64,000 bases of DNA from Trypanosoma brucei (taxonomy: Eukaryota): contig CM000208.1 of NCBI GenBank assembly GCA_000002445.1, forward strand, positions 2,624,001 through 2,688,000, written 5' to 3'. Each line of letters begins with the position of its first letter. Positions within the stretch are counted from its first letter, which is position 1. Position numbers and translations under genes: made by a program. The notes under the pieces were generated by a model. The model was not told the origin of the DNA. It ran no database searches and saw only the letters and a program-made list of their open reading frames with translations. This document shows positions 7,857 through 58,449 of this stretch, in pieces.

Positions 7857-10094
7857 TTAATCAAATTCTTCAACATCTAAACCTACTAATGCTTCACCAC
7901 CCTCAGGTGCCACTGCCTCAGGTTGTGCTTCTGCAGGAACTTGCTGTGGCTCTTCAAGCTCTTCAACTGCTTCCACTGCTATGTCACCCTCAGGTGCCGC
8001 TGCCTCAGGTTGTGCTTCTGCAGGAACTTGCTGTGGCTCTTCAAGCTCTTCAACTGCTTCCACTGCTATGTCACCCTCAGGTGCCGCTGCCTCAGGTTGT
8101 GCTTCTGCAGGAACTTGCTGTGGTTCTTCAAGCTCTTCAACTGCTTCCACTGCTATGTCACCCTCAGGTGCCGCTGCCTCAGGTTGTGCTTCTGCAGGAA
8201 CTTGCTGTGGCTCTTCAAGCTCTTCAACTGCTTCCACTGCTATGTCACCCTCAGGTGCCGCTGCCTCAGGTTGTGCTTCTGCAGGAACTTGCTGTGGTTC
8301 TTCAAGCTCTTCAAGTGCTTCCACTGCTATGTCACCCTCAGGTGCCGCTGCCTCAGGTTGTGCTTCTGCAGGAACTTGCTGTGGCTCTTCAAGCTCTTCA
8401 AGTGCTTCCACTGCTATGTCACCCTCAGGTGCCGCTGCCTCAGGTTGTGCTTCTGCAGGAACTTGCTGTGGCTCTTCAAGCTCTTCAACTGCTTCCACTG
8501 CTATGTCACCCTCAGGTGCCGCTGCCTCAGGTTGTGCTTCTGCAGGAACTTGCTGTGGCTCTTCAAGCTCTTCAACTGCTTCCACTGCTATGTCACCCTC
8601 AGGTGCCGCTGCCCCAGGTTGTGCTTCTGCAGGAACTTGCTGTGGCTCTTCAAGCTCTTCAACTGCTTCCACTGCTATGTCACCCTCAGGTGCCGCTGCC
8701 TCAGGTTGTGCTTCTGCAGGAACTTGCTGTGGCTCTTCAAGCTCTTCAACTGCTTCCACTGCTATGTCACCCTCAGGTGCCGCTGCCTCAGGTTGTGCTT
8801 CTGCAGGAACTTGCTGTGGCTCTTCAAGCTCTTCAACTGCTTCCACTGCTATGTCACCCTCAGGTGCCGCTGCCTCAGGTTGTGCTTCTGCAGGAACTTG
8901 CTGTGGTTCTTCAAGCTCTTCAAGTGCTTCCACTGCTATGTCACCCTCAGGTGCCGCTGCCCCAGGTTGTGCTTCTGCAGGAACTTGCTGTGGCTCTTCA
9001 AGCTCTTCAACTGCTTCCACTGCTATGTCACCCTCAGGTGCCGCTGCCTCAGGTTGTGCTTCTGCAGGAACTTGCTGTGGCTCTTCAAGCTCTTCAACTG
9101 CTTCCACTGCTATGTCACCCTCAGGTGCCGCTGCCTCAGGTTGTGCTTCTGCAGGAACTTGCTGTGGCTCTTCAAGCTCTTCAACTGCTTCCACTGCTAT
9201 GTCACCCTCAGGTGCCGCTGCCTCAGGTTGTGCTTCTGCAGGAACTTGCTGTGGTTCTTCAAGCTCTTCAAGTGCTTCCACTGCTATGTCACCCTCAGGT
9301 GCCGCTGCCTCAGGTTGTGCTTCTGCAGGAACTTGCTGTGGCTCTTCAAGCTCTTCAAGTCCTTCCACTGCTATGTCACCCTCAGGTTGTGCCTCAGGTT
9401 GTGCTTCTGCAGGAACTTGCTGTGGCTCTTCAAGCTCTTCAACTGCTTCCACTGCTATGTCACCCTCAGGTGCCGCTGCCTCAGGTTGTGCTTCTGCAGG
9501 AACTTGCTGTGGCTCTTCAAGCTCTTCAACTGCTTCCACTGCTATGTCACCCTCAGGTGCCGCTGCCTCAGGTTGTGCTTCTGCAGGAACTTGCTGTGGT
9601 TCTTCAAGCTCTTCAAGTGCTTCCACTGCTATGTCACCCTCAGGTGCCGCTGCCTCAGGTTGTGCCTCAGGTTGTGCTTCTGCAGGAACTTGCTGTGGCT
9701 CTTCAAGCTCTTCAAGTGCTTCCACTGCTATGTCACCCTCAGGTGCCGCTGCCTCAGGTTGTGCTTCTGCAGGAACTTGCTGTGGCTCTTCAAGCTCTTC
9801 AAGTGCTTCCACTGCTATGTCACCCTCAGGTGCCGCTGCCTCAGGTTGTGCCTCAGGTTGTGCTTCTGCAGGAACTTGCTGTGGTTCTTCAAGCTCTTCA
9901 AGTGCTTCCACTGCTATGTCACCCTCAGGTTGTGCCTCAGGTTGTGCTTCTGCAGGAACTTGCTGTGGCTCTTCAAGCTCTTCAAGTGCTTCCACTGCTA
10001 TGTCACCCTCAGGTGCCGCTGCCTCAGGTTGTGCCTCAGGTTGTGCTTCTGCAGGAACTTGCTGTGGCTCTTCAAGCTCTTCAACTGCTTCCAC
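7857..10094 (-). CDS. C-terminal part of the giant repeat protein: about 25 tandem 28/29/33-aa units (EELEEPQQVPAEAQPEAAAPEGDIAVEAL). It is out of frame with the upstream part because of indels at about 10.10-10.22 kb.
   Basis: ORF with no unique N-terminus. It has the same repeat as the 3' end of ORF 10189..15138. The M at 10094 is internal to a repeat. Confidence 0.65.
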   Translation of the reverse strand: MEAVEELEEPQQVPAEAQPEAQPEAAAPEGDIAVEALEELEEPQQVPAEAQPEAQPEGDIAVEALEELEEPQQVPAEAQPEAQPEAAAPEGDIAVEALEELEEPQQVPAEAQPEAAAPEGDIAVEALEELEEPQQVPAEAQPEAQPEAAAPEGDIAVEALEELEEPQQVPAEAQPEAAAPEGDIAVEAVEELEEPQQVPAEAQPEAAAPEGDIAVEAVEELEEPQQVPAEAQPEAQPEGDIAVEGLEELEEPQQVPAEAQPEAAAPEGDIAVEALEELEEPQQVPAEAQPEAAAPEGDIAVEAVEELEEPQQVPAEAQPEAAAPEGDIAVEAVEELEEPQQVPAEAQPEAAAPEGDIAVEAVEELEEPQQVPAEAQPGAAAPEGDIAVEALEELEEPQQVPAEAQPEAAAPEGDIAVEAVEELEEPQQVPAEAQPEAAAPEGDIAVEAVEELEEPQQVPAEAQPEAAAPEGDIAVEAVEELEEPQQVPAEAQPGAAAPEGDIAVEAVEELEEPQQVPAEAQPEAAAPEGDIAVEAVEELEEPQQVPAEAQPEAAAPEGDIAVEALEELEEPQQVPAEAQPEAAAPEGDIAVEALEELEEPQQVPAEAQPEAAAPEGDIAVEAVEELEEPQQVPAEAQPEAAAPEGDIAVEAVEELEEPQQVPAEAQPEAAAPEGDIAVEAVEELEEPQQVPAEAQPEAAAPEGDIAVEAVEELEEPQQVPAEAQPEAVAPEGGEALVGLDVEEFD

Positions 10095-11615
10095 TGCTAT
10101 GTCACCCTCAGGTTGTGCCTCAGGTTGTGCAGGTGTGCTTCTGCAGGAACTTGCTGTGGTTCTTCAAGCTCTTCAAGTGCTTCCACTGCTATGTCACCCT
10201 CAGGTTCGCTGCCTCAGGTTGTGCTTCTGCAGGAACTTGCTGTGGTTCTTCAAGCTCTTCAAGTGCTTCCACTGCTATGTCACCCTCAGGTGCCGCTGCC
10301 TCAGGTTGTGCTTCTGCAGGAACTTGCTGTGGCTCTTCAAGCTCTTCAAGTGCTTCCACTGCTATGTCACCCTCAGGTGCCGCTGCCTCAGGTTGTGCCT
10401 CAGGTTGTGCTTCTGCAGGAACTTGCTGTGGCTCTTCAAGCTCTTCAAGTGCTTCCACTGCTATGTCACCCTCAGGTGCCGCTGCCTCAGGTTGTGCCTC
10501 AGGTTGTGCTTCTGCAGGAACTTGCTGTGGTTCTTCAAGCTCTTCAAGTGCTTCCACTGCTATGTCACCCTCAGGTGCCGCTGCCTCAGGTTGTGCCTCA
10601 GGTTGTGCTTCTGCAGGAACTTGCTGTGGCTCTTCAAGCTCTTCAACTGCTTCCACTGCTATGTCACCCTCAGGTTGTGCCTCAGGTTGTGCTTCTGCAG
10701 GAACTTGCTGTGGCTCTTCAAGCTCTTCAAGTGCTTCCACTGCTATGTCACCCTCAGGTGCCGCTGCCTCAGGTTGTGCCTCAGGTTGTGCTTCTGCAGG
10801 AACTTGCTGTGGTTCTTCAAGCTCTTCAAGTGCTTCCACTGCTATGTCACCCTCAGGTGCCGCTGCCTCAGGTTGTGCCTCAGGTTGTGCTTCTGCAGGA
10901 ACTTGCTGTGGCTCTTCAAGCTCTTCAACTGCTTCCACTGCTATGTCACCCTCAGGTTGTGCCTCAGGTTGTGCTTCTGCAGGAACTTGCTGTGGCTCTT
11001 CAAGCTCTTCAAGTGCTTCCACTGCTATGTCACCCTCAGGTGCCGCTGCCTCAGGTTGTGCCTCAGGTTGTGCTTCTGCAGGAACTTGCTGTGGCTCTTC
11101 AAGCTCTTCAAGTGCTTCCACTGCTATGTCACCCTCAGGTGCCGCTGCCTCAGGTTGTGCCTCAGGTTGTGCTTCTGCAGGAACTTGCTGTGGCTCTTCA
11201 AGCTCTTCAACTGCTTCCACTGCTATGTCACCCTCAGGTTGTGCCTCAGGTTGTGCTTCTGCAGGAACTTGCTGTGGCTCTTCAAGCTCTTCAAGTGCTT
11301 CCACTGCTATGTCACCCTCAGGTGCCGCTGCCTCAGGTTGTGCCTCAGGTTGTGCTTCTGCAGGAACTTGCTGTGGCTCTTCAAGCTCTTCAACTGCTTC
11401 CACTGCTATGTCACCCTCAGGTGCCGCTGCCTCAGGTTGTGCCTCAGGTTGTGCTTCTGCAGGAACTTGCTGTGGCTCTTCAAGCTCTTCAAGTGCTTCC
11501 ACTGCTATGTCACCCTCAGGTTGTGCCTCAGGTTGTGCTTCTGCAGGAACTTGCTGTGGCTCTTCAAGCTCTTCAACTGCTTCCACTGCTATGTCACCCT
11601 CAGGTGCCGCTGCCT
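7860..11615. repeat. Tandem array of 84/87/99-nt coding repeats (28/29/33 aa), about 40 copies
   Basis: Direct reading. The unit ...atgtcaccctcaggtgccgctgcctcaggttgtgc[ctcaggttgtgc]ttctgcaggaacttgctgtggctcttcaagctcttcaa(c/g)tgcttccactgct recurs with 87-nt spacing (for example 7921 to 8008). Variants carry a 12-nt insertion (99 nt) or a 3-nt deletion (84 nt). Confidence 0.95.
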
Positions 11616-14600
11616 CAGGCTGCGCAATGTCAAGCTCCTTTTGATCTTCAGGCTCAAGTGTCTGAATCACCTCAAGCTGCGCAATGTCAAGCTCCTTTTG
11701 ATCTTCAGGCTCGAGTGTCTGAATCACCTCAGGCTGCGCAATGTCAAGCTCCTTTTGATCTTCAGGCTCAAGTGTCTGAATCACCTCAGGCTGCGCAATG
11801 TCAAGCTCCTTTTGATCTTCAGGCTCGAGTGTCTGAATGACCTCAGGCTGCGCAATGTCAAGCTCCTTTTGATCCTCAGGTTCAAGTGTCTGAATCACCT
11901 CAGGCTGCGCAATGTCAAGCTCCTTTTGATCTTCAGGCTCGGGTGTCTGAATCACCTCAGGCTGCGCAATGTCAAGCTCCTTTTGATCTTCAGGCTCGAG
12001 TGTCTGAATCACCTCAGGCTGCGCAATGTCAAGCTCCTTTTGATCTTCAGGCTCAAGTGTCTGAATCACCTCAGGCTGCGCAATGTCAAGCTCCTTTTGA
12101 TCTTCAGGCTCGGGTGTCTGAATCACCTCAGGCTGCGCAATGTCAAGCTCCTTTTGATCTTCAGGCTCGAGTGTCTGAATCACCTCAGGCTGCGCAATGT
12201 CAAGCTCCTTTTGATCTTCAGGCTCAAGTGTCTGAATCACCTCAGGCTGCGCAATTTCAAGCTCCTTTTGATCTTCAGGCTCAAGTGTCTGAATCACCTC
12301 AGGCTGCGCAATGTCAAGCTCCTTTTGATCTTCAGGCTCGAGTGTCTGAATCACCTCAGGCTGCGCAATGTCAAGCTCCTTTTGATCTTCAGGTTCAAGT
12401 GTCTGAATCACCTCAGGCTGCGCAATGTCAAGCTCCTTTTGATCTTCAGGCTCGAGTGTCTGAATCACCTCAGGCTGCGCAATGTCAAGCTCCTTTTGAT
12501 CTTCCGGCTCAAGTGTCTGAATCACCTCAGGCTGCGCAATGTCAAGCTCCTTTTGATCTTCAGGCTCAAGTGTCTGAATCACCTCAGGCTGCGCAATGTC
12601 AAGCTCCTTTTGATCTTCAGGCTCAAGTGTCTGAATCACCTCAGGCTGCGCAATGTCAAGCTCCTTTTGATCTTCAGGCTCAAGTGTCTGAATCACCTCA
12701 GGCTGCGCAATGTCAAGCTCCTTTTGATCTTCAGGCTCAAGTGTCTGAATCACCTCAGGCTGCGCAATGTCAAGCTCCTTTTGATCTTCAGGCTCAAGTG
12801 TCTGAATCACCTCAAGCTGCGCAATGTCAAGCTCCTTTTGATCTTCAGGCTCAAGTGTCTGAATCACCTCAGGCTGCGCAATGTCAAGCTCCTTTTGATC
12901 TTCAGGCTCGGGTGTCTGAATCACCTCAGGCTGCGCAATGTCAAGCTCCTTTTGATCTTCAGGCTCAAGTGTCTGAATCACCTCAGGCTGCGCAATGTCA
13001 AGCTCCTTTTGATCTTCAGGCTCGAGTGTCTGAATGACCTCAGGCTGCGCAATGTCAAGCTCCTTTTGATCCTCAGGTTCAAGTGTCTGAATCACCTCAG
13101 GCTGCGCAATGTCAAGCTCCTTTTGATCTTCAGGCTCGGGTGTCTGAATCACCTCAGGCTGCGCAATGTCAAGCTCCTTTTGATCTTCAGGCTCAAGTGT
13201 CTGAATCACCTCAGGCTGCGCAATGTCAAGCTCCTTTTGATCTTCAGGCTCAAGTGTCTGAATCACCTCAGGCTGCGCAATTTCAAGCTCCTTTTGATCT
13301 TCAGGCTCAAGTGTCTGAATCACCTCAGGCTGCGCAATGTCAAGCTCCTTTTGATCTTCAGGCTCAAGTGTCTGAATCACCTCAGGCTGCGCAATGTCAA
13401 GCTCCTTTTGATCTTCAGGCTCAAGTGTCTGAATCACCTCAGGCTGCGCAATGTCAAGCTCCTTTTGATCTTCAGGCTCGAGTGTCTGAATCACCTCAGG
13501 CTGCGCAATGTCAAGCTCCTTTTGATCTTCAGGCTCAAGTGTCTGAATCACCTCAGGCTGCGCAATGTCAAGCTCCTTTTGATCTTCAGGCTCAAGTGTC
13601 TGAATCACCTCAGGCTGCGCAATGTCAAGCTCCTTTTGATCTTCAGGCTCGAGTGTCTGAATCACCTCAGGCTGCGCAATGTCAAGCTCCTTTTGATCTT
13701 CAGGTTCAAGTGTCTGAATCACCTCAGGCTGCGCAATGTCAAGCTCCTTTTGATCTTCAGGTTCAAGCTTTTTGAATGCAATTTTCTCTGTATGTTCACG
13801 CTCCTTTTTTTTGTTTTCTTGTGTGATTTCTTCTTGATGATCGTTTGTTTTTAATTTTTCTTTTTGTGGTTTATTTTCTTTTGGGAGTTGAACTTCTTGG
13901 GGATCTTGGTTTGTGGTCGAGTCCTGTTTTTTTAGTTGTGGTTGGTGCCACTGCTGCTGCTCGGCTGTTTCATGAGCGTGAGCAAAACTTTTTTTCGGGT
14001 CAAGTATTTTGGTGTTTTGAGGCAGTGATTGCCTTTTTTGATTTGCTTCTTTACATGTTTGTTTTTTACTAATTGTTTCAGTTAGTGGCGTTTGGGCACT
14101 GCTGATGCGTGCCTCCTTAGCTTTGAGGTATATCGTCCTTCTCTCCATTTCTTGAAGGATGTCACCTCTGTTGATTTGTTCATTTTTTTCCATTCGTTGG
14201 CGTAATTTGCCTTCATCTTCAACCACGCCAACTACCTTCTTTAGTTCATGAAACGCCTCTTGCAGTAGAAGGTATGACCTTCGCAGGTCTACCATGATTT
14301 CCATGTAACTGAAGTAATGCTTTGTGTCAAGTGCTATTCTTTCTTGTATATTTTTCTGATACTGCCTCTCAACAAGCCGTTGGCGCTGTTTGGCGTGCAT
14401 ATCCCTCAGAACTTGTCTGTGAGTTTCACTGCGCTGTTTGTCTTTAATATCCAACGTTTCGCGCGTTTTGGCACTTATGTGTTCATATTTTTCCTTTGAT
14501 ATTCGGTCAATAGTCTCCTGCACTTTTGGCAAGAGAGTATCGAGCATGCGGTCAATGCGGCGTAGGGTGCGGTTGCGTTCGTTTTCTTCCTTTTTCCGAA

Positions 14601-15138
14601 TCCTCGCAGAAACCTCCTTGTCTAACTCATGCTGTGTTTTGTCATGGTCGTATTTTGTTAGCACCTGCTGTAGGCGTGAAGACCGCCATAGTCTAATATT
14701 ACTGTCAATTTGCGCGATTTCCTCCTCAATTGAAGGACTGTCATTAACAATGTGTCGTTGACTAAAAAAAACAGAGTTTAACACAGGTTGCCCGGCATCA
14801 GGAAGGGACTTGCTCACCTCTGTATAAAACGTCATATCGTGCATTGCATCACTAACCAACAACCCCTTAGCCACATCATCTGCTGCTGCAGCGCCGGCGT
14901 ACACGGACGGTCCTTTCGGACGCCGGAAAGAGGAGAGGGGGAGATAATCCGGCTTTGAGGGTTTGGCAGGGATCTTCAATTGCTTGCTATCGACCTCTGT
15001 GCTGACTTGCTCCAGTAGTGGTTCTGCAACCGTCGACGTTGTTGTAGGTTGCTCCTTGGCCTGCTCCTGAGGCGATCTCCCCTCGCCTGGGGAATTATTA
15101 TACATTGCTACTGCTGTTGCTATTTTCCCCCTTTCCAC
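10189..15138 (-). CDS. Giant repetitive protein, N-terminal 1649 aa. A unique charged, coiled-coil-like domain of about 450 aa is followed by about 38 copies of a 19-aa repeat (LEPEDQKELDIAQPEVIQT), then in-frame 28/33-aa repeats.
   Basis: Long ORF with a unique N-terminal region (15138 to about 13780) and a seamless in-frame junction between the two repeat types at about 11.62-11.64 kb. Together with 7857..10094 it would encode about 2400 aa. Confidence 0.8.
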   Translation of the reverse strand: MERGKIATAVAMYNNSPGEGRSPQEQAKEQPTTTSTVAEPLLEQVSTEVDSKQLKIPAKPSKPDYLPLSSFRRPKGPSVYAGAAAADDVAKGLLVSDAMHDMTFYTEVSKSLPDAGQPVLNSVFFSQRHIVNDSPSIEEEIAQIDSNIRLWRSSRLQQVLTKYDHDKTQHELDKEVSARIRKKEENERNRTLRRIDRMLDTLLPKVQETIDRISKEKYEHISAKTRETLDIKDKQRSETHRQVLRDMHAKQRQRLVERQYQKNIQERIALDTKHYFSYMEIMVDLRRSYLLLQEAFHELKKVVGVVEDEGKLRQRMEKNEQINRGDILQEMERRTIYLKAKEARISSAQTPLTETISKKQTCKEANQKRQSLPQNTKILDPKKSFAHAHETAEQQQWHQPQLKKQDSTTNQDPQEVQLPKENKPQKEKLKTNDHQEEITQENKKKEREHTEKIAFKKLEPEDQKELDIAQPEVIQTLEPEDQKELDIAQPEVIQTLEPEDQKELDIAQPEVIQTLEPEDQKELDIAQPEVIQTLEPEDQKELDIAQPEVIQTLEPEDQKELDIAQPEVIQTLEPEDQKELDIAQPEVIQTLEPEDQKELDIAQPEVIQTLEPEDQKELEIAQPEVIQTLEPEDQKELDIAQPEVIQTLEPEDQKELDIAQPEVIQTPEPEDQKELDIAQPEVIQTLEPEDQKELDIAQPEVIQTLEPEDQKELDIAQPEVIQTLEPEDQKELDIAQPEVIQTPEPEDQKELDIAQPEVIQTLEPEDQKELDIAQLEVIQTLEPEDQKELDIAQPEVIQTLEPEDQKELDIAQPEVIQTLEPEDQKELDIAQPEVIQTLEPEDQKELDIAQPEVIQTLEPEDQKELDIAQPEVIQTLEPEDQKELDIAQPEVIQTLEPEDQKELDIAQPEVIQTLEPEDQKELDIAQPEVIQTLEPEDQKELDIAQPEVIQTLEPEDQKELEIAQPEVIQTLEPEDQKELDIAQPEVIQTLEPEDQKELDIAQPEVIQTPEPEDQKELDIAQPEVIQTLEPEDQKELDIAQPEVIQTLEPEDQKELDIAQPEVIQTPEPEDQKELDIAQPEVIQTLEPEDQKELDIAQPEVIQTLEPEDQKELDIAQPEVIQTLEPEDQKELDIAQPEVIQTLEPEDQKELDIAQLEVIQTLEPEDQKELDIAQPEAAAPEGDIAVEAVEELEEPQQVPAEAQPEAQPEGDIAVEALEELEEPQQVPAEAQPEAQPEAAAPEGDIAVEAVEELEEPQQVPAEAQPEAQPEAAAPEGDIAVEALEELEEPQQVPAEAQPEAQPEGDIAVEAVEELEEPQQVPAEAQPEAQPEAAAPEGDIAVEALEELEEPQQVPAEAQPEAQPEAAAPEGDIAVEALEELEEPQQVPAEAQPEAQPEGDIAVEAVEELEEPQQVPAEAQPEAQPEAAAPEGDIAVEALEELEEPQQVPAEAQPEAQPEAAAPEGDIAVEALEELEEPQQVPAEAQPEAQPEGDIAVEAVEELEEPQQVPAEAQPEAQPEAAAPEGDIAVEALEELEEPQQVPAEAQPEAQPEAAAPEGDIAVEALEELEEPQQVPAEAQPEAQPEAAAPEGDIAVEALEELEEPQQVPAEAQPEAAAPEGDIAVEALEELEEPQQVPAEAQPEAANLRVT
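11615..13775. repeat. Tandem array of a 57-nt coding repeat (19 aa), about 38 copies, highly homogenised
   Basis: Direct reading. ttgatcttcaggctcaagtgtctgaatcacctcaggctgcgcaatgtcaagctcctt repeats with exact 57-nt period; only a few point variants (caa/cgg/cga, gtc/ttc). Confidence 0.95.
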
Positions 15139-46096: not shown

Positions 46097-47557
46097 TTAC
46101 CCCTTAACGCACAACAACTGTCTGAGCACACATACAACCTCCACAAGATCATCCTGAGCACGCATAACGTCGTCAATGTCCTTGTACGCCATGGGTGTCT
46201 CGTCTAGAACGTCAGCGTCTTTTCGGCACTCTATGCCCTTTGTTGCCGTCTTATGCTGCTCCAAGGTGAAACGTCGTTTCGCCTCACCACGGCTGTAACG
46301 CCTGCCAGCTCCGTGGGAGCAGGATGAGTAACTTTTTGGATTACCTTTCCCACGTACAATGTAGCTTCTCGTTCCCATGCTTCCAGGAATGACCGCAAGC
46401 TCGCCTGCACGTGCGGATGTAGCCCCCTTCCTTGTTAACCACACGTGCACTCCAGCACTCAACTCCATACGCTGAACGTAATTGTGATGGCAATTTATCG
46501 CAAGTGCATCAACGGAAAACCCCCTACCTATTGTTTTGCGCACCGCGCGAAGCACGTTGTCCAGCATAATCTCACGGTTCAGCTTTGCGTAGAGTTGCGC
46601 CCAATAAACAGCTTCCACATACTGTTCGAAGTGCTCAGAACCCTCACGCAGATAGGCCAGGTCGGCACTCGGAAGATTTGCTAGGTGGGCCCCCATATCC
46701 TTCTTGGCGAGCTCGAAAAATATTGTTCCGATGCGGTTTCCAACTCCCCGCGAACCGCTGTGCAACATCACCCAGATGTTAGGTTGCCGGGAAACGCCTT
46801 TGGACGTTTCAGATGTGGCACCGCTGCTCCCTGAATTCCCAATTTCAACGTAACTTTCACCCACGTCCACCTTCCTTCCATCATCAACACATAGTTCAAT
46901 GAAGTGATTTCCACCGCCCAGAGTGCCCAAGTGTTCAATGTGGTTGCTAGTTTCAATGTGTTTTTGCATGCAACAGATCTCCTCAAAGCCTTTCTGCAAC
47001 TGCGTCCGCCACACAGCAGCGACGCTCTCTGGGATATTGTTTCGCCAGCTTCCCGCATCTAACCCACTTCTACCATTGTGCGTTCGCCCGTGTGGGACGG
47101 CAACTTCGATAGCCAGTCGGAGGGCAGCCAGTGACGACGGTAAATCTTCTTGTGTCAGGCTCGTACGCACCGCGATCATCCCGCAACCGATATCCACCCC
47201 AACACTCGCTGGTATGATTGCCCGTGTTGTTGGGATGACCGTCCCTACAGTGGCACCGTTGCTAGTATGTACATCTGGCATGGCCACAACGGGGTGCTGA
47301 ATAATATCACCCAACCGTGACAACTGCAGGAGCTGTTCAACTGCAGAGCGCTCCACCTCAACGCCACTCACCCAAGCATGGACATCCACACTACTTCCTT
47401 CCTCCCGAATTACGGTATACGGTTCTACGTCCGACCCATGATCAGTCTCACCTACGGCGCAACACTTCCGTCCCGGAAACACAGCACTGTCGGTGCGTCC
47501 ACCTCCACCTGCACCAGCGGTAGCGCGAATGCATAATTTTGTGACAGCGTGACGCAT
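46097..47557 (-). CDS. RTCB: RNA-splicing ligase RtcB (tRNA ligase, HSPC117 family), 486 aa
   Basis: RtcB signatures GGNHFIEL, HSGSRGVGN, SCSHGAGR, plus overall length and layout. Confidence 0.9.
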   Translation of the reverse strand: MRHAVTKLCIRATAGAGGGGRTDSAVFPGRKCCAVGETDHGSDVEPYTVIREEGSSVDVHAWVSGVEVERSAVEQLLQLSRLGDIIQHPVVAMPDVHTSNGATVGTVIPTTRAIIPASVGVDIGCGMIAVRTSLTQEDLPSSLAALRLAIEVAVPHGRTHNGRSGLDAGSWRNNIPESVAAVWRTQLQKGFEEICCMQKHIETSNHIEHLGTLGGGNHFIELCVDDGRKVDVGESYVEIGNSGSSGATSETSKGVSRQPNIWVMLHSGSRGVGNRIGTIFFELAKKDMGAHLANLPSADLAYLREGSEHFEQYVEAVYWAQLYAKLNREIMLDNVLRAVRKTIGRGFSVDALAINCHHNYVQRMELSAGVHVWLTRKGATSARAGELAVIPGSMGTRSYIVRGKGNPKSYSSCSHGAGRRYSRGEAKRRFTLEQHKTATKGIECRKDADVLDETPMAYKDIDDVMRAQDDLVEVVCVLRQLLCVKG

Positions 47558-51010: not shown

Positions 51011-51377
51011 AAGTAATGGAAAACCCTCCCAAATCCGATGTAGATGGCATGATACTGGTAGGGCTTTAGTTCACAATCTGTAGTGGTAGAGCTGTGCGTG
51101 AGTCGCGAAATATTTACCTTCTTGCCATCAACGTGACGAAATTCATCCACCACGGATACCAACACACATTCGCTAAACAAAAAAAAAAAACTATGACCGC
51201 GTACACCATCCACTACAATCGACTCAACTAAATAGAGTCATACAATACCCGAAAGTTAAACAACAAAGAGTAAAATAAAAAAAAATATCGCTCATCTAAA
51301 AAAAAGAAAACACATTGTCACGCATGGTTCTTGACCACGCTTTGACAATGACAAAAGAACTGTCCTAACCGCGTTAA

Positions 51378-52811
51378 CTACACTGTAGGATTTGGTTGGG
51401 GGCAGGGCGCTTGCCCATAAGAGTGACCCTGTTGTTGCGGTGGTGGCGGTTGGCCGTAAGTATAGCCTCCTTGTGGTGGTGGCGGTTGGCCATACGTGTA
51501 CCCTTGTTGCGGTGGTGGCTTCCCATAAGTATACCCTCCTTGTTGCGGCGGTGGTGGTTGGCCATACGTGTGCCCTTGTTGCGGTGGTGGTGGTTGCCCA
51601 TAGGGATAACCTTGTTGTTGCGGCGGTGGTGGTTGCCCATAAAGGTAGCCCTGCTGCGGCAGTGGTTGGCCGTAGGCATAACCTGGTGGTGGTGGTGGTT
51701 GTGATTGTCCGTATGTATAAGGAGAGCCATCCCCCTGAGGTGTATCAGGATCACTCGTATCATTGGATGAAGAGCCCTTACGCTTCAGACAGAAGCAAAC
51801 TACACACACACACACGGCAATTTCCAGAAGAAGGAGCAGCGATCCGGCCACGATACAAGCGATTCCCATTGTCCGATTCGGAACGCCGAATTCACCCTCG
51901 CCCATCGTTTCACGCTCGAGTGCGATGAAAGGATCTCCCTCACTGTATAACTGCACCTGAACCTTATCCTGGGGTACCGCCTCGTATCCCTGGGACAGAT
52001 GTCCAAAACTGTACAACGCGCTCTGATATTGGGTACTTTCCCTGTACCCCCCTTTTCCATCGCTTGCAGCGACAAGATAGAGCTTGGACAAATACACTTC
52101 CTGCTTGCAGTAGCCGCACTTTTCACCCAACCGACATTTCGAGCTTTGAGTAGTGTATTGGCCACCTTGTGAATAGCACTTGTTCCTAAATTGCTCGTGC
52201 TTCTCTTGACAGTCACATTTTCTGGAATATCCAGAACATTGAGAAGAACTGCAGGAGAACCATCTCTCCCTTGTTGCATGAAGAGGTGACCTCCGCGTGA
52301 ACGGTGCGACGGTGTTAATGTTCACCTTCACTACCAGTTGGCTGCCATCGGTGTTACCGCTAACCGGGACGGTGGCTTCAGTGTAAACGGACGGTATCGG
52401 ACCAAAACCCGCGACGGACAGTGACTGCCGTCTGACGGTGGCCTTCACATCACTGAATGTTCCAGTCCAACTCTCCAGGGGCTTTGGGTCGAATGCACTC
52501 ACCGCCTTCTTGAAATTGTCACGAGGGTCGTCGCTGGAGAGGAAAAGTACGCCAACACCGATGAGGACAGGGCCTCCAATGAGGAGACAACATAGGCACG
52601 CAACCGCGGTCTTGAAGAATTCACCGACAGAGTGCACGAGCTGTTCGATGCACATGAAGCTTTTCCTTGCGACGGCGTTAGCTCTGCACAACGAGTAGGG
52701 AAGAAAGGTGAGAGTAGGGTTTGGCGGTGGAAGCACGCGCGCACACGCATAATCGAAACTTACAACTGAGCACACGAAAAAGCGAGTTACAAGCACAAAT
52801 TTGTCAACCAA
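51378..52811 (-). CDS. Membrane protein with a Cys-rich ectodomain, one TM helix (MGIACIVAGSLLLLLEIAVCVCVVCFCL) and a cytoplasmic tail of about 8 GYxYGQPPPPQQ repeats (Pro/Tyr/Gln-rich)
   Basis: ORF on the array strand. N-terminal signal-anchor-like segment. 12-aa imperfect repeats at the C-terminus (51378 to about 51700). The first repeat contains PPGY. Confidence 0.65.
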   Translation of the reverse strand: MVDKFVLVTRFFVCSVVSFDYACARVLPPPNPTLTFLPYSLCRANAVARKSFMCIEQLVHSVGEFFKTAVACLCCLLIGGPVLIGVGVLFLSSDDPRDNFKKAVSAFDPKPLESWTGTFSDVKATVRRQSLSVAGFGPIPSVYTEATVPVSGNTDGSQLVVKVNINTVAPFTRRSPLHATRERWFSCSSSQCSGYSRKCDCQEKHEQFRNKCYSQGGQYTTQSSKCRLGEKCGYCKQEVYLSKLYLVAASDGKGGYRESTQYQSALYSFGHLSQGYEAVPQDKVQVQLYSEGDPFIALERETMGEGEFGVPNRTMGIACIVAGSLLLLLEIAVCVCVVCFCLKRKGSSSNDTSDPDTPQGDGSPYTYGQSQPPPPPGYAYGQPLPQQGYLYGQPPPPQQQGYPYGQPPPPQQGHTYGQPPPPQQGGYTYGKPPPQQGYTYGQPPPPQGGYTYGQPPPPQQQGHSYGQAPCPQPNPTV

Positions 52812-52856: not shown

Positions 52857-53861
52857 TCACAACTTCTTTACTTCACCCACAGTCCTCTGCCGCATCAGCG
52901 TTAGGAGTGTCTCGACAGTGGCGCTGTCATTTCGCTCGTCCTCCACCTTTCGGAACTGTAAGCGAAGCTTCCGCGCCTCTTTTTCGTGTAGTTTTTGTTG
53001 GATGCTGTCAACATAATGCTGTTTCTCCCGGTTGCGAGAGCCGCTCATAACGTAGCCGAGGGACTCCGCAGCAGCAACGCTCTCCGCATCGTATCCAATC
53101 TCCCCACGACGCGGTGCTCGCTTATACTGTGCAAGGAACTCCTCGCGGGTCATTTGCAGTGGATGCTTTGAAGCAGCGACGCACCCTCGTGGCTCCTCGG
53201 TTTTGCTGTAGTCCGGTTCGTTGCCTTGTTGCAACGACACACCAAACTCGTCACCCCCATCATCCCCCGTCTGTGCACCTACCCGTAGCCCACGGCACTC
53301 ACCGTCGGCGGTGGCGCCGCCGCTACGTGGTGGCGCCGGGCACATTACATGACAGACGCCACTGTCGGTCTTGATAGGCCCTACACCTTCTACAGTTTCC
53401 CTCGCACGCGCTGCCTCGATGAGGGCTGCGAGCGCGCTGGGGGTTGGGGACACCCCTGCCGCGTCAACACGCCTAACCTCATGCGCGGTGCTGGTCGCCA
53501 CCTCTGGTTCGTGGTGGTCATCACATGGTGACGGAGACGCTGCCGACACTTCCCCTGCGCTAGGACTCTCTCCCTCTGCGTCGTAGCCTACACCTGAGGA
53601 GCGCACGAGGAACGCAACAGTTTCGCTCAACGGGCTCTCCCCCGTCCTCGTTCCGTCACCCCGTCCGTTCACCGTACAAGTTCGCTGGGGACGCGACTGT
53701 CCCGGTAGACTCCCTCTCTTTCCAAGCGCGGATAGTTCGTGCACAGCCAACGTGTGATGCGTGCAAAATATGTTTTGCGCAATAACGGAATGCACAACTT
53801 TCTCTAGCTCCCTACCGCGAGGTTCCATTGCAGGGCACCAAAAGGCACCAGTCCCTGCCAT
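52857..53861 (-). CDS. NKAP (DUF926)-like nuclear protein, 334 aa
   Basis: C-terminal PRRGEIGYDAESVAAAESLGYVMSGSRNREKQ matches the NKAP C-terminal domain signature (GYVMSGSRH). Confidence 0.55.
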   Translation of the reverse strand: MAGTGAFWCPAMEPRGRELEKVVHSVIAQNIFCTHHTLAVHELSALGKRGSLPGQSRPQRTCTVNGRGDGTRTGESPLSETVAFLVRSSGVGYDAEGESPSAGEVSAASPSPCDDHHEPEVATSTAHEVRRVDAAGVSPTPSALAALIEAARARETVEGVGPIKTDSGVCHVMCPAPPRSGGATADGECRGLRVGAQTGDDGGDEFGVSLQQGNEPDYSKTEEPRGCVAASKHPLQMTREEFLAQYKRAPRRGEIGYDAESVAAAESLGYVMSGSRNREKQHYVDSIQQKLHEKEARKLRLQFRKVEDERNDSATVETLLTLMRQRTVGEVKKL

Positions 53862-55710: not shown

Positions 55711-58449
55711 TCAGTGCAGAGATGATGCTATATCAGAAAGATCATCCGCAAGTTCAGGGTATTTGTCGGTTAGCTCTCCTAGTATTTCGGCGAATGCCCT
55801 CCGTTTTTCGTTCAGTCTCGATGCCTCAGCTGCCGTATGCTTTAACTCTAGAGCGGACTTGTACGTTCCCTTCTCTGCGTCACGAATGCGCTGGAGACTC
55901 GAGTTCTTCGCGCGTCGCTCGTCCTCTAAACGGTCGTGTTCCTTTTGAGCGACAACAAGTTGTGAGCGAAGCTCGGAAATCTGTTCGTCAAGAGTGTCTA
56001 TTTCCCGCTGAACAGATTCTGCCTCGGCCGTTGTCTTCTCAATGGAAGCAAGACGTTCCTTGATCTGACGCTCTTTTAGCTGCGCCTCTTGTCTTTTTTC
56101 ATTTAACTCCTTAAACATCCTGGAACTTTCTTTTTCAATATCCATTCTCGTCACTCCCCGCTTGTTCACTTTGGCAGCCTCTTGGATCGCCTGGCCTTTT
56201 GCCCTGATGATCTCCCGATGATCAATTGACTTCTGCATTTCTTCAATTAAAAACCGCTGTTCACGCTGCAGGTGACTGACTCGCTGTTCCATGATCCCAA
56301 TCTCTTTTCTCATTTTCTCTACTTCTGCTTTACCAACCGAAGGATCTAACGCCATCTCAGTTTCTTTAGCAACTTGCATTTTCCTCTCCCAAAACAATAT
56401 ATCACTTTCATGATTCATAATTTGTTCAAGGAGTTCGGTTTTCGCCTGTCTAGCTTCCTCCACCTTTTGCTCAAGCACGATCGCCTCACGCTTTTTTTCC
56501 TGGAGTCTACGAATGAGATCATTCTCGAGAAGAAACGCTTCGTTGGCAACGTTCTTCTGATCATCGGAATTTTTGCAAAGTTGAGTGTTTACCCGTTTCA
56601 TCTCTAGGTGCATGGCATTCGCCTTGTTTTCGAGGTTTGCAATGTCCTTTTTCTCGTTTGATATATTTACTAGAAGTCGATCCCTTTTTTGTGTTAGTAC
56701 AGTGCTCTGGGCCTGGAGCTCAAGAATCGCTTCGTTCACTTCATTTGAATTGTTTTTACAGTTAACCAACTCTGTTTGCAGTTTTATCCATTCCTGTTGG
56801 AGAGCCTCATTTTCATTGACTTTTTCCGCAATTGCTTTTGAAAGACTGTTAATGGTGGCCTCCAGGGGCCCTACGTGTTCCCCCTTGTCGGCGCCATAAG
56901 CAGCGACAAGTTGTTCATACTGGTGGTTGAGTTGGTCTAGTTGTTTTTGCTTCCTGTCGATCTCGTCGTGTCGACGGTGAATGTCCATTTGCATGCGTTC
57001 GACCATCAGGCCACGAGCTTGTAGCTCCTTTTCGAGATCGCCCAATGTGGTTTTCAGGGTCTCATTATGTGACTGAGCCTGCAGTGTGTCCACACGAATG
57101 CGAGCAAGTTCGTTCTCCATTTGTGCCACTTGAAGCTCCTTGGATCTAATGGAGCCTTTCATTTTTTCGATATCACTCAACGTACCGTGGCACTCTTGTT
57201 TCAGTGAGGACTGCTTACCAAGTGACTCGAGTATGTCATTTTCCATCAGGACCACCTCCTTAGAAACCTTCAACATCTTCTTCTCGATATCGGCAGCTTC
57301 GGTAGAGTATGTTCTTGCCTCGTATTCCAGCTTTTTGGCTTCTGCATCTGTTTGTTCAATATTATCCTTCAGCATCACGTATTCACGTGCGCCTTTCTCC
57401 TTTCTTTCCACAAGGACATCGATCTGCTTCCCTAGAACGGTAACTTCGTTGTCAACTCGAGACATGAATTCAGCCAATTTGGCAGTCTCTGCTTGAACGC
57501 CTTTAATGTCTTTCCTTGTCCCAATTATCTCGTTCTCGAGCACTTGTAGCTCATCTTTCTGCTGTTGCAGTGCCTCTTCTGTCTTTTTCATGGCTTCGTG
57601 ACGCCGTTGCATCCCAATGAGCGTACCCTTCCACTGTTGAACTAATTGTTTTTTTTCAAAATTAATTGCCTCCATTTCTGCCAAAGCTTCAGCTAATATT
57701 TCCCGAGCCTTCTGGGTTTCCCTTTGCTGGTTCTCGACCTGGGAGTTAACCGTGGATATTTCTTCTTCTAGCAGAACAACACGTTTCTCCAAAGAATCTA
57801 TAAGGTTGTCTTGCTTCAACTTTTCCTTCTCCAAGTTGGTTATATCTTCCTCTGTTTTGAAAGCAGCACGGCGCTCCACTTGAACTTCGTTTTTGAGTTG
57901 TTCATTAAACTGTTGGACTTTCACTAATGTTTCAGTAAGCTTTAAAAGATCCGCCTGCTGACGTTCGTATTGTCGTTGCTGGTCCTCAATGTTTTTCCGA
58001 AGTGTGTCTGCCTGCGCAGCAAGTTCCTCTCGTTCTTGAAGCTTTTCCTCGTGTTTTTGCTTTGTTGCGAGGTGCTTTTCATGGCATTTCTCAAGAGTTT
58101 CCTGCAACTTGGCAAGGTGTTGCTGGGAATTGTAAAGCTCAACACCGCATTGCTCCCTTTCTTTCTGAGCCTTAGATAATTCATTCTTTACTTCATAGAT
58201 CTGCTGCATGACCTCTTCCAGATGCTGTCGAAGTTGCGCTTCAATGCGCTTCTGGACCGGTGCGAGCACCGCAGATTCCGGGTCCAGGTCGGAAACATCG
58301 CTTGCAACATCGTATGGTACGTCGGACATAGATTCTCCTGCGGAATAACTGTAGTGAGCAAGATCAGTTGTGAAAAAAGCACAAATAAAGGTACACGCAC
58401 AAAAAAAAAGGAAAGCAAAAAAAAAAAAAAAAGAGCATAGTCGATACAT
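55711..58449 (-). CDS. Long coiled-coil protein, about 870 aa. True start probably MSDVPYDV with ATG at 58327-58329; the track start at 58449 translates the upstream pyrimidine tract.
   Basis: Heptad-like, Glu/Lys/Gln/Leu-rich sequence throughout. A purine-rich plus-strand tract at 58370-58440 lies immediately upstream of the MSDV start. Confidence 0.7.
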   Translation of the reverse strand: MYRLCSFFFFFAFLFFCACTFICAFFTTDLAHYSYSAGESMSDVPYDVASDVSDLDPESAVLAPVQKRIEAQLRQHLEEVMQQIYEVKNELSKAQKEREQCGVELYNSQQHLAKLQETLEKCHEKHLATKQKHEEKLQEREELAAQADTLRKNIEDQQRQYERQQADLLKLTETLVKVQQFNEQLKNEVQVERRAAFKTEEDITNLEKEKLKQDNLIDSLEKRVVLLEEEISTVNSQVENQQRETQKAREILAEALAEMEAINFEKKQLVQQWKGTLIGMQRRHEAMKKTEEALQQQKDELQVLENEIIGTRKDIKGVQAETAKLAEFMSRVDNEVTVLGKQIDVLVERKEKGAREYVMLKDNIEQTDAEAKKLEYEARTYSTEAADIEKKMLKVSKEVVLMENDILESLGKQSSLKQECHGTLSDIEKMKGSIRSKELQVAQMENELARIRVDTLQAQSHNETLKTTLGDLEKELQARGLMVERMQMDIHRRHDEIDRKQKQLDQLNHQYEQLVAAYGADKGEHVGPLEATINSLSKAIAEKVNENEALQQEWIKLQTELVNCKNNSNEVNEAILELQAQSTVLTQKRDRLLVNISNEKKDIANLENKANAMHLEMKRVNTQLCKNSDDQKNVANEAFLLENDLIRRLQEKKREAIVLEQKVEEARQAKTELLEQIMNHESDILFWERKMQVAKETEMALDPSVGKAEVEKMRKEIGIMEQRVSHLQREQRFLIEEMQKSIDHREIIRAKGQAIQEAAKVNKRGVTRMDIEKESSRMFKELNEKRQEAQLKERQIKERLASIEKTTAEAESVQREIDTLDEQISELRSQLVVAQKEHDRLEDERRAKNSSLQRIRDAEKGTYKSALELKHTAAEASRLNEKRRAFAEILGELTDKYPELADDLSDIASSLH

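What the first reader, a model, noticed from the sequence alone, without database searches (positions are those of the whole stretch)
51378..52811. Membrane protein with a repetitive GYxYGQPPPPQQ cytoplasmic tail
The C-terminal about 110 aa consist of 8 imperfect 12-aa repeats (PPPPGYAYGQ, PLPQQGYLYGQ, PPPPQQQGYPYGQ ...) directly after a TM helix and a basic stop-transfer (LKRKG). Pro/Tyr/Gly-rich tails of this kind (annexin A7 or ALIX-like PxY repeats, PPxY) are ligands for PEF-hand (ALG-2) proteins, WW domains or ESCRT adaptors. This suggests a receptor that is sorted or endocytosed via its tail. In the other frame the same DNA gives a His/Arg-rich ORF (51374..51763), which is an artefact.
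Basis: seen in the sequence. Interest (0 to 1): 0.5.

Follow-up and report, generated by a model that had tools for sequence, protein, structure and literature searches.

The report
Known trypanosome surface protein PSSA-2
This is the already characterised Trypanosoma brucei insect-stage surface protein PSSA-2; its proline/tyrosine-rich repeat tail was described in 1993 and shown in 2009 to be cytoplasmic and needed for the protein to leave the ER, so the finding is real but not new.

Summary
Read from its first ATG (window 52655..51378, minus strand), the ORF encodes 425 aa. These are 100% identical to T. brucei TREU927 'procyclic form surface glycoprotein', i.e. PSSA-2 (Tb927.10.11220).

The tail carries 8 G[YH]xYG[QK] units, or 9 YG[QK] motifs, spaced 11-13 aa apart. 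Shuffling predicts 0.01.

The His/Arg ORF in the other frame is an artefact.

The literature already describes:
- the 'YGQP' Pro/Tyr repeats;
- the cytoplasmic location of the tail;
- ER retention when residues 292-436 are deleted;
- MAPK4-dependent phosphorylation of T305 in the linker;
- a tsetse salivary-gland colonisation defect in null mutants.

The ectodomain crystal structure is solved (PDB 5KLH).

PPxY, ALG-2, ESCRT late-domain and YxxPhi motifs are absent or not conserved. Only YG[Q/A] in a disordered P/Q/G/Y-rich context is conserved.

Added here:
- the N-terminal hydrophobic segment is the most conserved part of the protein;
- the family, P/Q/Y-rich tail included, reaches free-living bodonids and zoosporic fungi.

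Verdict: already known, low interest.

The parts
51378..52655 (-). PSSA-2 coding sequence (Tb927.10.11220), 425 codons plus TAG stop (51378-51380)
   Evidence: 100% identity over the full length to T. brucei TREU927 'procyclic form surface glycoprotein'. The gene ID and name come from PMC2739429 and PMC4621835.
52608..52655 (-). Short N-terminal stub, aa 1-16 (MCIEQLVHSVGEFFKT), predicted cytoplasmic if TM1 is not cleaved
   Evidence: Cys2 is nearly invariant. Bodonid homologues start MGKG(G/N)C.
52536..52607 (-). N-terminal hydrophobic segment / signal anchor (TM1), aa 17-40, with CLCC and invariant G28, P29, G35
   Evidence: Hydropathy and a helix in the AF2 model. It is the most conserved segment of the protein: 69% column identity against 47% for the ectodomain. 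Martins 2015 predicted a signal anchor.
51870..52535 (-). Extracellular bilobed ectodomain, aa 41-262
51783..51869 (-). Transmembrane helix TM2, aa 263-291; its last residue (K291) with R292-K293 of the next segment forms the basic KRK stop-transfer
   Evidence: Hydropathy and AF2 helix 260-294.
51720..51782 (-). Juxtamembrane Ser/Asp-rich linker, aa 292-312. It contains T305-P (codon 51741-51743) and S311-P.
   Evidence: Sequence. T305 phosphorylation and its dependence on MAPK4 come from Fragoso 2009.
51408..51719 (-). Repeat region, aa 313-416: about 8 imperfect units of roughly 12 aa, consensus PPPPQQGYTYGQ, with 9 YG[QK] motifs. P+Q+G+Y make up 90 of its 104 residues.
   Evidence: AF2 pLDDT is below 40, so it is predicted disordered.
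51381..51407 (-). Non-repeat C-terminus PCPQPNPTV (aa 417-425), including Cys418
   Evidence: Fragoso 2009 speculate that the C-terminal Cys acts in dimerisation.
52684..52730 (-). Polypyrimidine tract followed by AG, a candidate trans-splice acceptor about 29 nt upstream of the ATG
   Evidence: Read directly from the sequence. The function is inferred from general trypanosomatid mRNA processing and was not tested.
52656..52811 (-).
   Evidence: The database protein and all orthologues start at MC.... This stretch overlaps the polypyrimidine tract.
51374..51763 (-). Out-of-frame His/Arg/Asn-rich ORF (129 aa); an artefact of the repeat
   Evidence: Codon-position differences among repeat units fit the PSSA-2 frame only.

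Best explanation
The locus is the single-copy T. brucei gene PSSA-2 (procyclic-specific surface antigen 2, Tb927.10.11220).

Architecture: a short N-terminal stub; a highly conserved hydrophobic signal anchor (aa 17-40); a bilobed extracellular domain whose crystal structure is known; a second membrane helix; a KRK stop-transfer; a 21-aa acidic/Ser linker with the MAPK4-dependent phosphosite T305; and about 104 aa of disordered PPPPQQGYxYGQ repeats in the cytoplasm.

Shown by others: the C-terminus is cytoplasmic. Deleting the whole cytoplasmic domain traps the protein in the ER. T305A is mislocalised only when no wild-type copy is present, which suggests oligomers. Null mutants colonise tsetse salivary glands poorly.

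Inferred here: the repeats are not a string of classical short sorting motifs. They look like a low-complexity 'sticker-and-spacer' module, with regularly spaced Tyr in YG[Q/A]P cores separated by Pro/Gln/Gly spacers. This module would act through multivalency. It could drive self-association or clustering of PSSA-2, avidity binding to a cytosolic partner, or both. That in turn would license ER export and surface residence, with phospho-T305 in the linker as the switch. Copy number is free to vary between strains and species, while the YGQ core and the composition are kept.
For: Identity and fold:
- 100% identity over 425 aa.
- PDB 5KLH, 5KMX and 6Y0D match the ectodomain.
- Gene ID and experiments: PMC2739429, PMC4643927, PMC4621835.

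The tail is coding and under selection:
- 8 motif matches against 0.011 expected.
- Nucleotide differences among repeat units are 0.15, 0.16 and 0.55 at codon positions 1, 2 and 3.

The tail is predicted disordered: pLDDT below 50 for residues 296-367 and 370-425, with 10-residue block means of 31-39 from residue 301.

The tail is conserved:
- All 13 aligned homologues have 63-81% P+Q+G+Y tails, and there are 6-8 YG[QA] in all 8 Trypanosoma.
- 69 of 120 family tails have at least 50% P/Q/G/Y, including the chytrid and blastoclad homologues at 0.56-0.59.

Oligomerisation hints:
- T305A is rescued to the surface in trans by wild type.
- A ~70 kDa band is seen for TcSMP.

Copy-number polymorphism: 425 aa in TREU927 against 436 aa in AnTat1.1.
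Against: - The only experimental truncation (delta 292-436) removes linker, T305, repeats and Cys418 together. Nothing yet shows that the repeats themselves are the required element.
- No binding partner, oligomeric state or condensate behaviour has been measured.
- No phosphotyrosine was detected, so Tyr-phospho signalling is unsupported.
- 33 of 120 more distant family members have tails with less than 40% P/Q/G/Y, and others have short tails. The tail type is therefore not universal in the family.
- The sticker-spacer reading rests on composition and on analogy recalled from memory (FET-family SYGQ domains, synaptophysin tail). It was not tested here.
Confidence: 0.85

Rival explanations
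1. The tail is a set of ligands for WW-domain ubiquitin ligases (PPxY), PEF-hand/ALG-2 proteins or ESCRT adaptors, and it drives endocytosis or lysosomal sorting of a receptor.
For: - The composition resembles the ALIX and annexin A7 Pro/Tyr/Gly-rich regions (from memory).
- There is one PPxY (PPGY) in the first repeat of T. brucei.
- The tail is required for correct trafficking.
Against: - PPxY counts in 8 Trypanosoma orthologues are 1, 0, 0, 0, 0, 2, 0, 3, and PPxY is found in only 25 of 101 family tails.
- ALG-2 type-1 and type-2 patterns each occur in 1 of 101 tails and in no Trypanosoma.
- P[ST]AP and YPxnL each occur in 4 of 101 and in no Trypanosoma.
- YxxPhi is absent in T. brucei and [DE]xxxL[LI] is absent everywhere.
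- The phenotype of tail loss is ER retention, not surface accumulation.
- No literature link was found.
Confidence: 0.07
2. The poly-proline runs (PPP/PPPP) are direct COPII ligands. This would work like the triple-proline motifs of TANGO1/cTAGE5 and Sec31 that bind the Sec23 gelsolin-like domain (from memory). The tail would then be a multivalent ER-export signal.
For: - Tail deletion causes ER retention.
- There are 14 overlapping PPP in T. brucei, 16 in T. rangeli and 13 in T. vivax.
- PPP is present in 69 of 101 family tails.
Against: - The T. theileri paralogues have 0 and 1 PPP, and T. cruzi has 2, yet they keep 6-8 YG[QA]. PPP is therefore not the conserved element.
- The truncation tested also removed the basic juxtamembrane residues and T305.
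- No binding data exist.
Confidence: 0.12
3. The repeats have no specific function. They would be a neutrally expanding low-complexity spacer, with all trafficking information in the juxtamembrane linker (KRK, T305-P) or in the C-terminal Cys.
For: - Copy number varies between strains.
- T305 alone controls localisation in the null background.
- Distant family members have short or different tails.
Against: - Third-position-biased divergence among repeat units indicates purifying selection on the peptide.
- The YG[QA] core and the P/Q/G/Y composition are kept from Trypanosoma to bodonids, and the composition is kept in fungal homologues, although the repeat units have been re-homogenised separately in each lineage.
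Confidence: 0.12
4. The repeat is not translated, because the CDS ends before it or because the region is a non-coding tandem repeat.
For: None beyond the existence of alternative-frame ORFs.
Against: - The open frame is continuous to 51378.
- C-terminally HA-tagged full-length protein of 50 kDa was detected, against 35 kDa for the truncation.
- Orthologues keep the tail in the same frame.
- The codon-position pattern fits this frame.
Confidence: 0.01

Closest known systems
T. brucei PSSA-2 (procyclic-specific surface antigen 2; Tb927.10.11220 / Tb10.26.0790; Jackson 1993, Fragoso 2009; ectodomain PDB 5KLH)
   Same: It is the same gene, with 100% identity over 425 aa to the TREU927 protein. 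The ectodomain matches 5KLH at E 1e-148.
   Different: Nothing differs. Other strains carry one more repeat (AnTat1.1, 436 aa).
Orthologues: T. congolense insect stage antigen (ISA, TCIL3000_10_9440; PDB 5KMX) and the T. cruzi TcSMP family (PDB 6Y0D)
   Different: Identity is 41-64%. TcSMP is a multi-copy family expressed in all stages and is implicated in host-cell invasion and lysosome exocytosis. Its repeats are fewer and differ in sequence.
T. brucei ISG65 and CRAM (type I surface proteins)
   Same: The cytoplasmic domain is needed for ER exit. Fragoso 2009 make this comparison.
   Different: The ectodomains are unrelated and the tails are short and non-repetitive (from memory). Not tested here.
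Membrane proteins with Pro/Gln/Gly/Tyr repeat tails: cephalopod rhodopsin C-terminal (PPQGY)n and synaptophysin C-terminal YG(P/Q)QG repeats (recalled from memory, not tested)
   Same: All have a cytoplasmic C-terminal tail directly after the last membrane helix, built of short Tyr-Gly-Gln-Pro-type repeats and predicted to be disordered.
   Different: The proteins and lineages are unrelated, so this is analogy only. The functions of those tails are themselves only partly understood.
FET-family (FUS/EWS/TAF15) [G/S]Y[G/S]Q low-complexity domains (from memory)
   Same: They have regularly spaced Tyr within G/Q/S/P-rich disorder, and the YGQ tripeptide recurs. This is the basis for the sticker-spacer reading.
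   Different: The PSSA-2 repeats are about 30% proline, membrane-tethered and much shorter. No phase-separation or fibril data exist.
   Same: The overall Pro/Tyr/Gly/Gln composition is similar.
   Different: The defining motifs are absent or not conserved.
Pfam Extensin_2 (PF04554)
   Same: The tail scores 26.9 bits against a cut-off of 20.8.
   Different: The match is compositional only. Extensins are secreted plant cell-wall hydroxyproline-rich glycoproteins, whereas this tail is cytoplasmic and belongs to a kinetoplastid membrane protein.

Membership tests
PSSA-2 / TcSMP / ISA family | Sequence identity to the annotated T. brucei PSSA-2 protein | tested here: met
   100% identity and 100% coverage over 425 aa. 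The gene ID is linked to the name.
PSSA-2 / TcSMP / ISA family | Bilobed ectodomain fold of PDB 5KLH, 5KMX and 6Y0D | tested here: met
PSSA-2 / TcSMP / ISA family | C-terminal membrane helix followed by a cytoplasmic Pro/Tyr repeat tail with the YGQ(P) motif | tested here: met
   for the sequence. The cytoplasmic location comes from the literature.
PSSA-2 / TcSMP / ISA family | [quoted passage not shown] | tested here: met
   A hydrophobic segment at aa 17-40, helical in the model and the most conserved region. Whether it is cleaved cannot be tested here.
PSSA-2 / TcSMP / ISA family | Phosphorylated Thr305-Pro in the juxtamembrane linker | not testable with these tools
   T305-P306 is present in the sequence. 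Phosphorylation is known only from Fragoso 2009. The site is not strictly conserved, since T. conorhini has no [ST]P.
WW-domain group I ligands | PPxY motif(s), conserved in orthologues | tested here: not met
   One PPGY in T. brucei. Five of 8 Trypanosoma orthologues have none, and 25 of 101 family tails have any.
ALG-2 (PEF-hand) ligands | ABM-1 (PPYPx3-4YP) or ABM-2 ([P/Phi]Px[P/Phi]G[F/W]) motif; the definitions are recalled from memory | tested here: not met
   No match in any of the 8 Trypanosoma, and 1 of 101 family tails for each motif.
ESCRT late-domain ligands | P[ST]AP (Tsg101) or YPxnL (ALIX V domain) | tested here: not met
   No match in any of the 8 Trypanosoma, and 4 of 101 family tails for each motif.
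Clathrin-adaptor endocytic signals | YxxPhi or [DE]xxxL[LI] | tested here: not met
   YxxPhi has no match in T. brucei and one in T. vivax. [DE]xxxL[LI] occurs in 0 of 101 tails.
Extensins (Pfam PF04554) | Secreted plant cell-wall protein with Ser-Pro4 repeats | tested here: not met
   The Pfam score is above threshold, but the tail has no SPPPP (sequence). It is cytoplasmic and kinetoplastid, so the match is compositional.
Prion-like / FET-type low-complexity domains (works-like comparison only) | Disordered, Tyr regularly spaced in a G/Q/S/P-rich sequence, with self-association | tested here: inconclusive
   Predicted disorder and regular Tyr spacing and composition are met. Self-association is only hinted at genetically and cannot be tested here.

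The most novel reading that the evidence does not exclude
PSSA-2 may not be a Trypanosoma-specific 'procyclic antigen'. It may be one member of an old and widespread family of two-pass surface proteins in flagellated eukaryotes: kinetoplastids including free-living bodonids, chytrid and blastoclad fungi, and hundreds of environmental protist sequences. The conserved TM1 hairpin and the membrane-tethered Tyr/Pro/Gln low-complexity tail would form a common signalling or clustering device, possibly coupled to actin, since one family member fuses a gelsolin repeat to the tail. The homology to fungi is well supported here (profile E 1e-24 to 1e-27, plus shared TM1 and DPxI..T.G..FG signatures). The shared mechanism is pure inference.
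Probability: 0.15. Interest if true: 0.5.

Novelty: already known. Interest (0 to 1): 0.12.

Why it matters
For the finding as stated, it matters little. The protein, its Pro/Tyr 'YGQP' tail, the tail's cytoplasmic location, the tail's requirement for ER exit and the ectodomain structure are all published.

What remains open is what the repeats themselves bind or do. The only truncation tested removed the whole cytoplasmic domain. No ligand is known for either side of the membrane, even though the protein is needed for efficient tsetse salivary-gland colonisation, and so for transmission.

Only the YG[Q/A] core and the composition are conserved, not the classical sorting motifs. The same tail type also accompanies the ectodomain in bodonids and zoosporic fungi. 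Together these point to a multivalent low-complexity mechanism rather than a WW, ALG-2 or ESCRT signal.

Tried and rejected
1. Pfam scan of the protein. It gave only a compositional Extensin_2 hit and a sub-threshold TMEM52 hit, so the ectodomain has no Pfam family.
2. Word-indexed homologue searches with the tail-less query and with a diverse tail-less alignment. They returned few proteins. The index misses distant members, and the exhaustive profile search was needed.
4. Ramaswamy 2016 (PMC5119560) could not be read. It is cited only through the reference list of PMC8781870.
5. A literature search for 'PSSA-2' plus 'cell-surface phylome' found nothing. Searches for PEF-hand proteins or PPxY/WW in trypanosomes returned only unrelated calpain and WW papers.
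6. Cluster look-ups for 30 family members. Most are unnamed metagenome or Logan contigs, so the full taxonomic range, including whether the distant long-tailed members are Leishmaniinae, could not be settled.
7. Considered and rejected: a plant-type extensin, a non-coding tandem repeat, the His/Arg-rich frame as a real gene, and the TTG start.
8. The 'Colponema vietnamica' homologue (P0023) is probably contamination from kinetoplastid prey. This is from memory of how that culture is fed, so I did not count it as an alveolate member.
Full report
**1. What is at the coordinates**

The window looks like a trypanosomatid polycistron. About 50% G+C and almost all long ORFs lie on the minus strand.

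The reported ORF 51378..52811 (minus) is the mechanical ORF from a TTG. Its first ATG is at 52655 (M53). From there it encodes 425 aa that are 100% identical, end to end, to NCBI 'procyclic form surface glycoprotein [Trypanosoma brucei brucei TREU927]'.

This protein is PSSA-2. Fragoso et al. 2009 give Tb10.26.0790 and 425 aa for TREU927 (PMC2739429). Tb927.10.11220 is named PSSA-2 in PMC4621835 and PMC4643927.

That fits a trans-splice acceptor, but this is inference. Those codons are not part of the protein.

**2. The observation**

- The tail holds 8 G[YH]xYG[QK] units, or 9 YG[QK] motifs spaced 11-13 aa apart.
- Tandem Repeats Finder reports a 36-nt period with 72-nt and 108-nt super-periods.
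- Shuffling the tail residues 20,000 times gives 0.011 motif matches on average and never more than 1.
- Across seven of the repeat units (the two GH-type units were not captured by the anchor pattern), nucleotide differences are 0.15, 0.16 and 0.55 at codon positions 1, 2 and 3. The peptide is therefore under purifying selection in the annotated frame.
- The repeats (aa 313-416) are separated from the membrane helix (aa 263-291, followed by KRK) by a 21-aa Ser/Asp-rich linker. This linker contains T305-P.

**3. What is already known (literature)**

- PSSA-2 was cloned in 1993. [quoted passage not shown]
- Fragoso 2009 showed surface localisation in procyclic forms. The C-terminal HA tag is detectable only after permeabilisation, so the tail is cytoplasmic.
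- Deleting residues 292-436 retains the protein in the ER with BiP.
- T305 is phosphorylated in a MAPK4-dependent way.
- T305A is mislocalised only in the null background, and T305D is surface-expressed but slows growth. The authors read this as evidence for homo-oligomers.
- No phosphotyrosine was detected.
- Null mutants establish midgut infections but colonise salivary glands poorly.
- AnTat1.1 carries one extra repeat (436 aa).
- Martins 2015 described the T. cruzi orthologues (TcSMP). They noted the YGQ motif and '8 tandem proline repeats' of PSSA-2. They also predicted that the first hydrophobic domain of TcSMP_S and of Tb927.10.11220 is an uncleaved signal anchor.
- Kelly 2017 list the PSSA-2 orthogroup as conserved in all Trypanosoma examined and absent from Leishmania.

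**4. Structure**

An AF2 model built from 13 homologues has pLDDT mostly above 90 for the ectodomain. It shows long helices for aa 3-40 and 260-294. The tail (296-425) has pLDDT below 40, so it is predicted disordered.

A sequence search finds 5KLH, the T. brucei PSSA-2 ectodomain itself (aa 39-263, E 1e-148). These are the structures of Ramaswamy et al. 2016 ('novel bilobed architecture'). I could cite that paper only through a reference list, because it was not readable.

**5. Conservation of the tail**

All 12 other homologues aligned have a tail of 107-161 aa made of 63-81% P+Q+G+Y. They include T. rangeli, T. vivax, two T. theileri paralogues, T. conorhini, T. melophagium, Neobodo designis and five environmental sequences.

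The repeat unit has been homogenised separately in each lineage:
- PPPPQGYTYGQ, seven full copies plus a truncated eighth, in T. rangeli;
- QGYGYGQPPVPP in T. theileri;
- QPQPGYG in an environmental bodonid-like sequence.

The constant element is YG[Q/A](P), present 6-8 times in all eight Trypanosoma sequences.

**6.

I scanned 101 family tails of at least 60 aa for defined motifs.

| Motif | Family tails with a match | Trypanosoma (8 orthologues) |
|---|---|---|
| PPxY | 25/101 | counts 1, 0, 0, 0, 0, 2, 0, 3 |
| ALG-2 type 1 | 1/101 | none |
| ALG-2 type 2 | 1/101 | none |
| P[ST]AP | 4/101 | none |
| YPxnL | 4/101 | none |
| YxxPhi | 32/101 | none in T. brucei |
| [DE]xxxL[LI] | 0/101 | none |

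- The published phenotype of tail loss is a forward-trafficking block (ER retention), not a failure of endocytosis.
- Literature searches gave no PEF-hand or WW connection.
The named ligands are unsupported.
- A COPII/Sec23 'PPP' reading would fit the ER phenotype. It is weakened by T. theileri orthologues with 0-1 PPP.

**7. Most likely mechanism**

- *Shown:* membrane topology of the C-terminus, the tail's requirement for ER exit, the T305 phospho-switch and the role in fly transmission.
- *Inferred:* the repeats act as a disordered multivalent module. Tyr in YGQP cores would be the 'stickers' and Pro/Gln/Gly the spacers. The module would promote self-association and/or avidity binding to a cytosolic partner.
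- *Consistent with this:* the genetic evidence for oligomers, the tolerance of copy-number change, lineage-specific homogenisation with a retained core and composition, and the lack of conserved classical motifs.
- *Caveat:* no experiment has yet separated the repeats from the linker, T305 and Cys418.

**8. Beyond the finding**

- The N-terminal hydrophobic segment (aa 17-40; CLCC, invariant G28, P29, G35) is the most conserved part of the protein. Column identity is 69% against 47% for the ectodomain, and pairwise identity is 42-79% against 17-44%. That is unusual for a cleaved signal peptide. It supports the signal-anchor, two-pass reading already suggested by Martins 2015.
- A tail-less profile searched against 1.84 billion representative proteins finds 722 proteins at E <= 1e-3 and 327 at E <= 1e-10.
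- Nearly all full-length hits have exactly two hydrophobic segments, and 69 of 120 have tails with at least 50% P/Q/G/Y.
- Named members include T. cruzi TcSMP and, unexpectedly, zoosporic fungi. These are Rhizophlyctis rosea (two strains), Thoreauomyces humboldtii, Allomyces macrogynus (contigs of about 1 Mb) and A. javanicus.
- The fungal proteins share the TM1 'C..GP.L.IVG' and pre-TM2 'DP.I.L..T.G..FG' signatures. Their tails are P/Q/Y-rich at 0.56-0.59.
- One environmental member fuses a gelsolin repeat to the end of its Pro-rich tail.
- In the papers I read, the family is treated as Trypanosoma-restricted. I could not check whether this wider distribution has been reported elsewhere.

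**9. Verdict**

The object is a known, named and structurally characterised protein whose tail was described three decades ago. Novelty: already known. Interest: low.

The residual open question is what the YGQP repeats bind or do. The wider family distribution is the only part that might merit follow-up.

Noticed in passing
window 52536-52607 (-), aa 17-40 of PSSA-2: The N-terminal hydrophobic segment is the most conserved region of the whole protein across 13 homologues. Column identity is 69%, G28, P29 and G35 are invariant, and there is a CLCC cluster. This argues for a retained TM1 (two-pass hairpin) rather than the cleaved signal peptide drawn in Fragoso 2009. Martins 2015 already predicted a signal anchor.
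   Followed up: partly
P0135, P0186, P0107, P0156, P0168, P0169 (proteins): Clear homologues of the PSSA-2 ectodomain plus both membrane segments, with P/Q/Y-rich tails, exist in the chytrids Rhizophlyctis rosea and Thoreauomyces humboldtii. They also exist in the blastoclads Allomyces macrogynus and A. javanicus (profile E 1e-24 to 1e-27). The profile finds 722 representative proteins overall. The papers read here treat the family as Trypanosoma-only.
   Followed up: partly
P0108 (674 aa, Logan contig of 15.7 kb, organism unknown): This family member has a long Pro-rich tail that ends in a Pfam Gelsolin repeat (PF00626, E 2e-10, aa 592-653). It is a possible hint that tails of this family connect to actin.
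   Followed up: no
P0122, P0123, P0124, P0145, P0150 (environmental sequences): Four of these five distant members have long N-terminal extensions (P0145 does not). Their tails are not P/Q/G/Y-rich where measured (0.20 for P0123; the other four were not scored). All five end in an acidic C-terminus...DDDEL...VDNEL...MDDDL...KDDDL and ...DDDDADL. The meaning is unknown.
   Followed up: no
P0014, P0015, P0053, P0060, P0082, P0095 (bodonid-like homologues): These homologues start MGKG(G/N)C, which resembles an N-myristoylation plus palmitoylation signal. Trypanosoma orthologues start MC. This would place the N-terminus at the cytoplasmic face and so fit an uncleaved TM1.
   Followed up: no
window 7898-13767: There are very large tandem arrays here: 87 nt x 41 copies (92% matches), then 57 nt x 38 copies (97% matches). 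They lie inside long minus-strand ORFs (7857..10094 and 10189..15138). Strong AT skew produces long spurious ORFs on the plus strand. The 1649-aa ORF has no Pfam hit.
   Followed up: no
window 52857-53861 (-), 46097-47557 (-), 43481-45811 (-), 55711-58449 (-), 28044-32714 (-): The neighbouring genes of the polycistron have these Pfam matches: NKAP C-terminal domain, RtcB tRNA ligase, ATG7 (ThiF + ATG7_N), a BRE1-like coiled-coil protein, and a 1556-aa protein with DUF7495-7498. They look ordinary, and none is obviously linked to PSSA-2.
   Followed up: no
P0023 (EukProt 'Colponema vietnamica', 646 aa): This PSSA-2 homologue is labelled as from an alveolate transcriptome. It resembles bodonid sequences closely, so it is probably contamination from kinetoplastid prey in the culture. 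That inference is from memory and was not checked.
   Followed up: no
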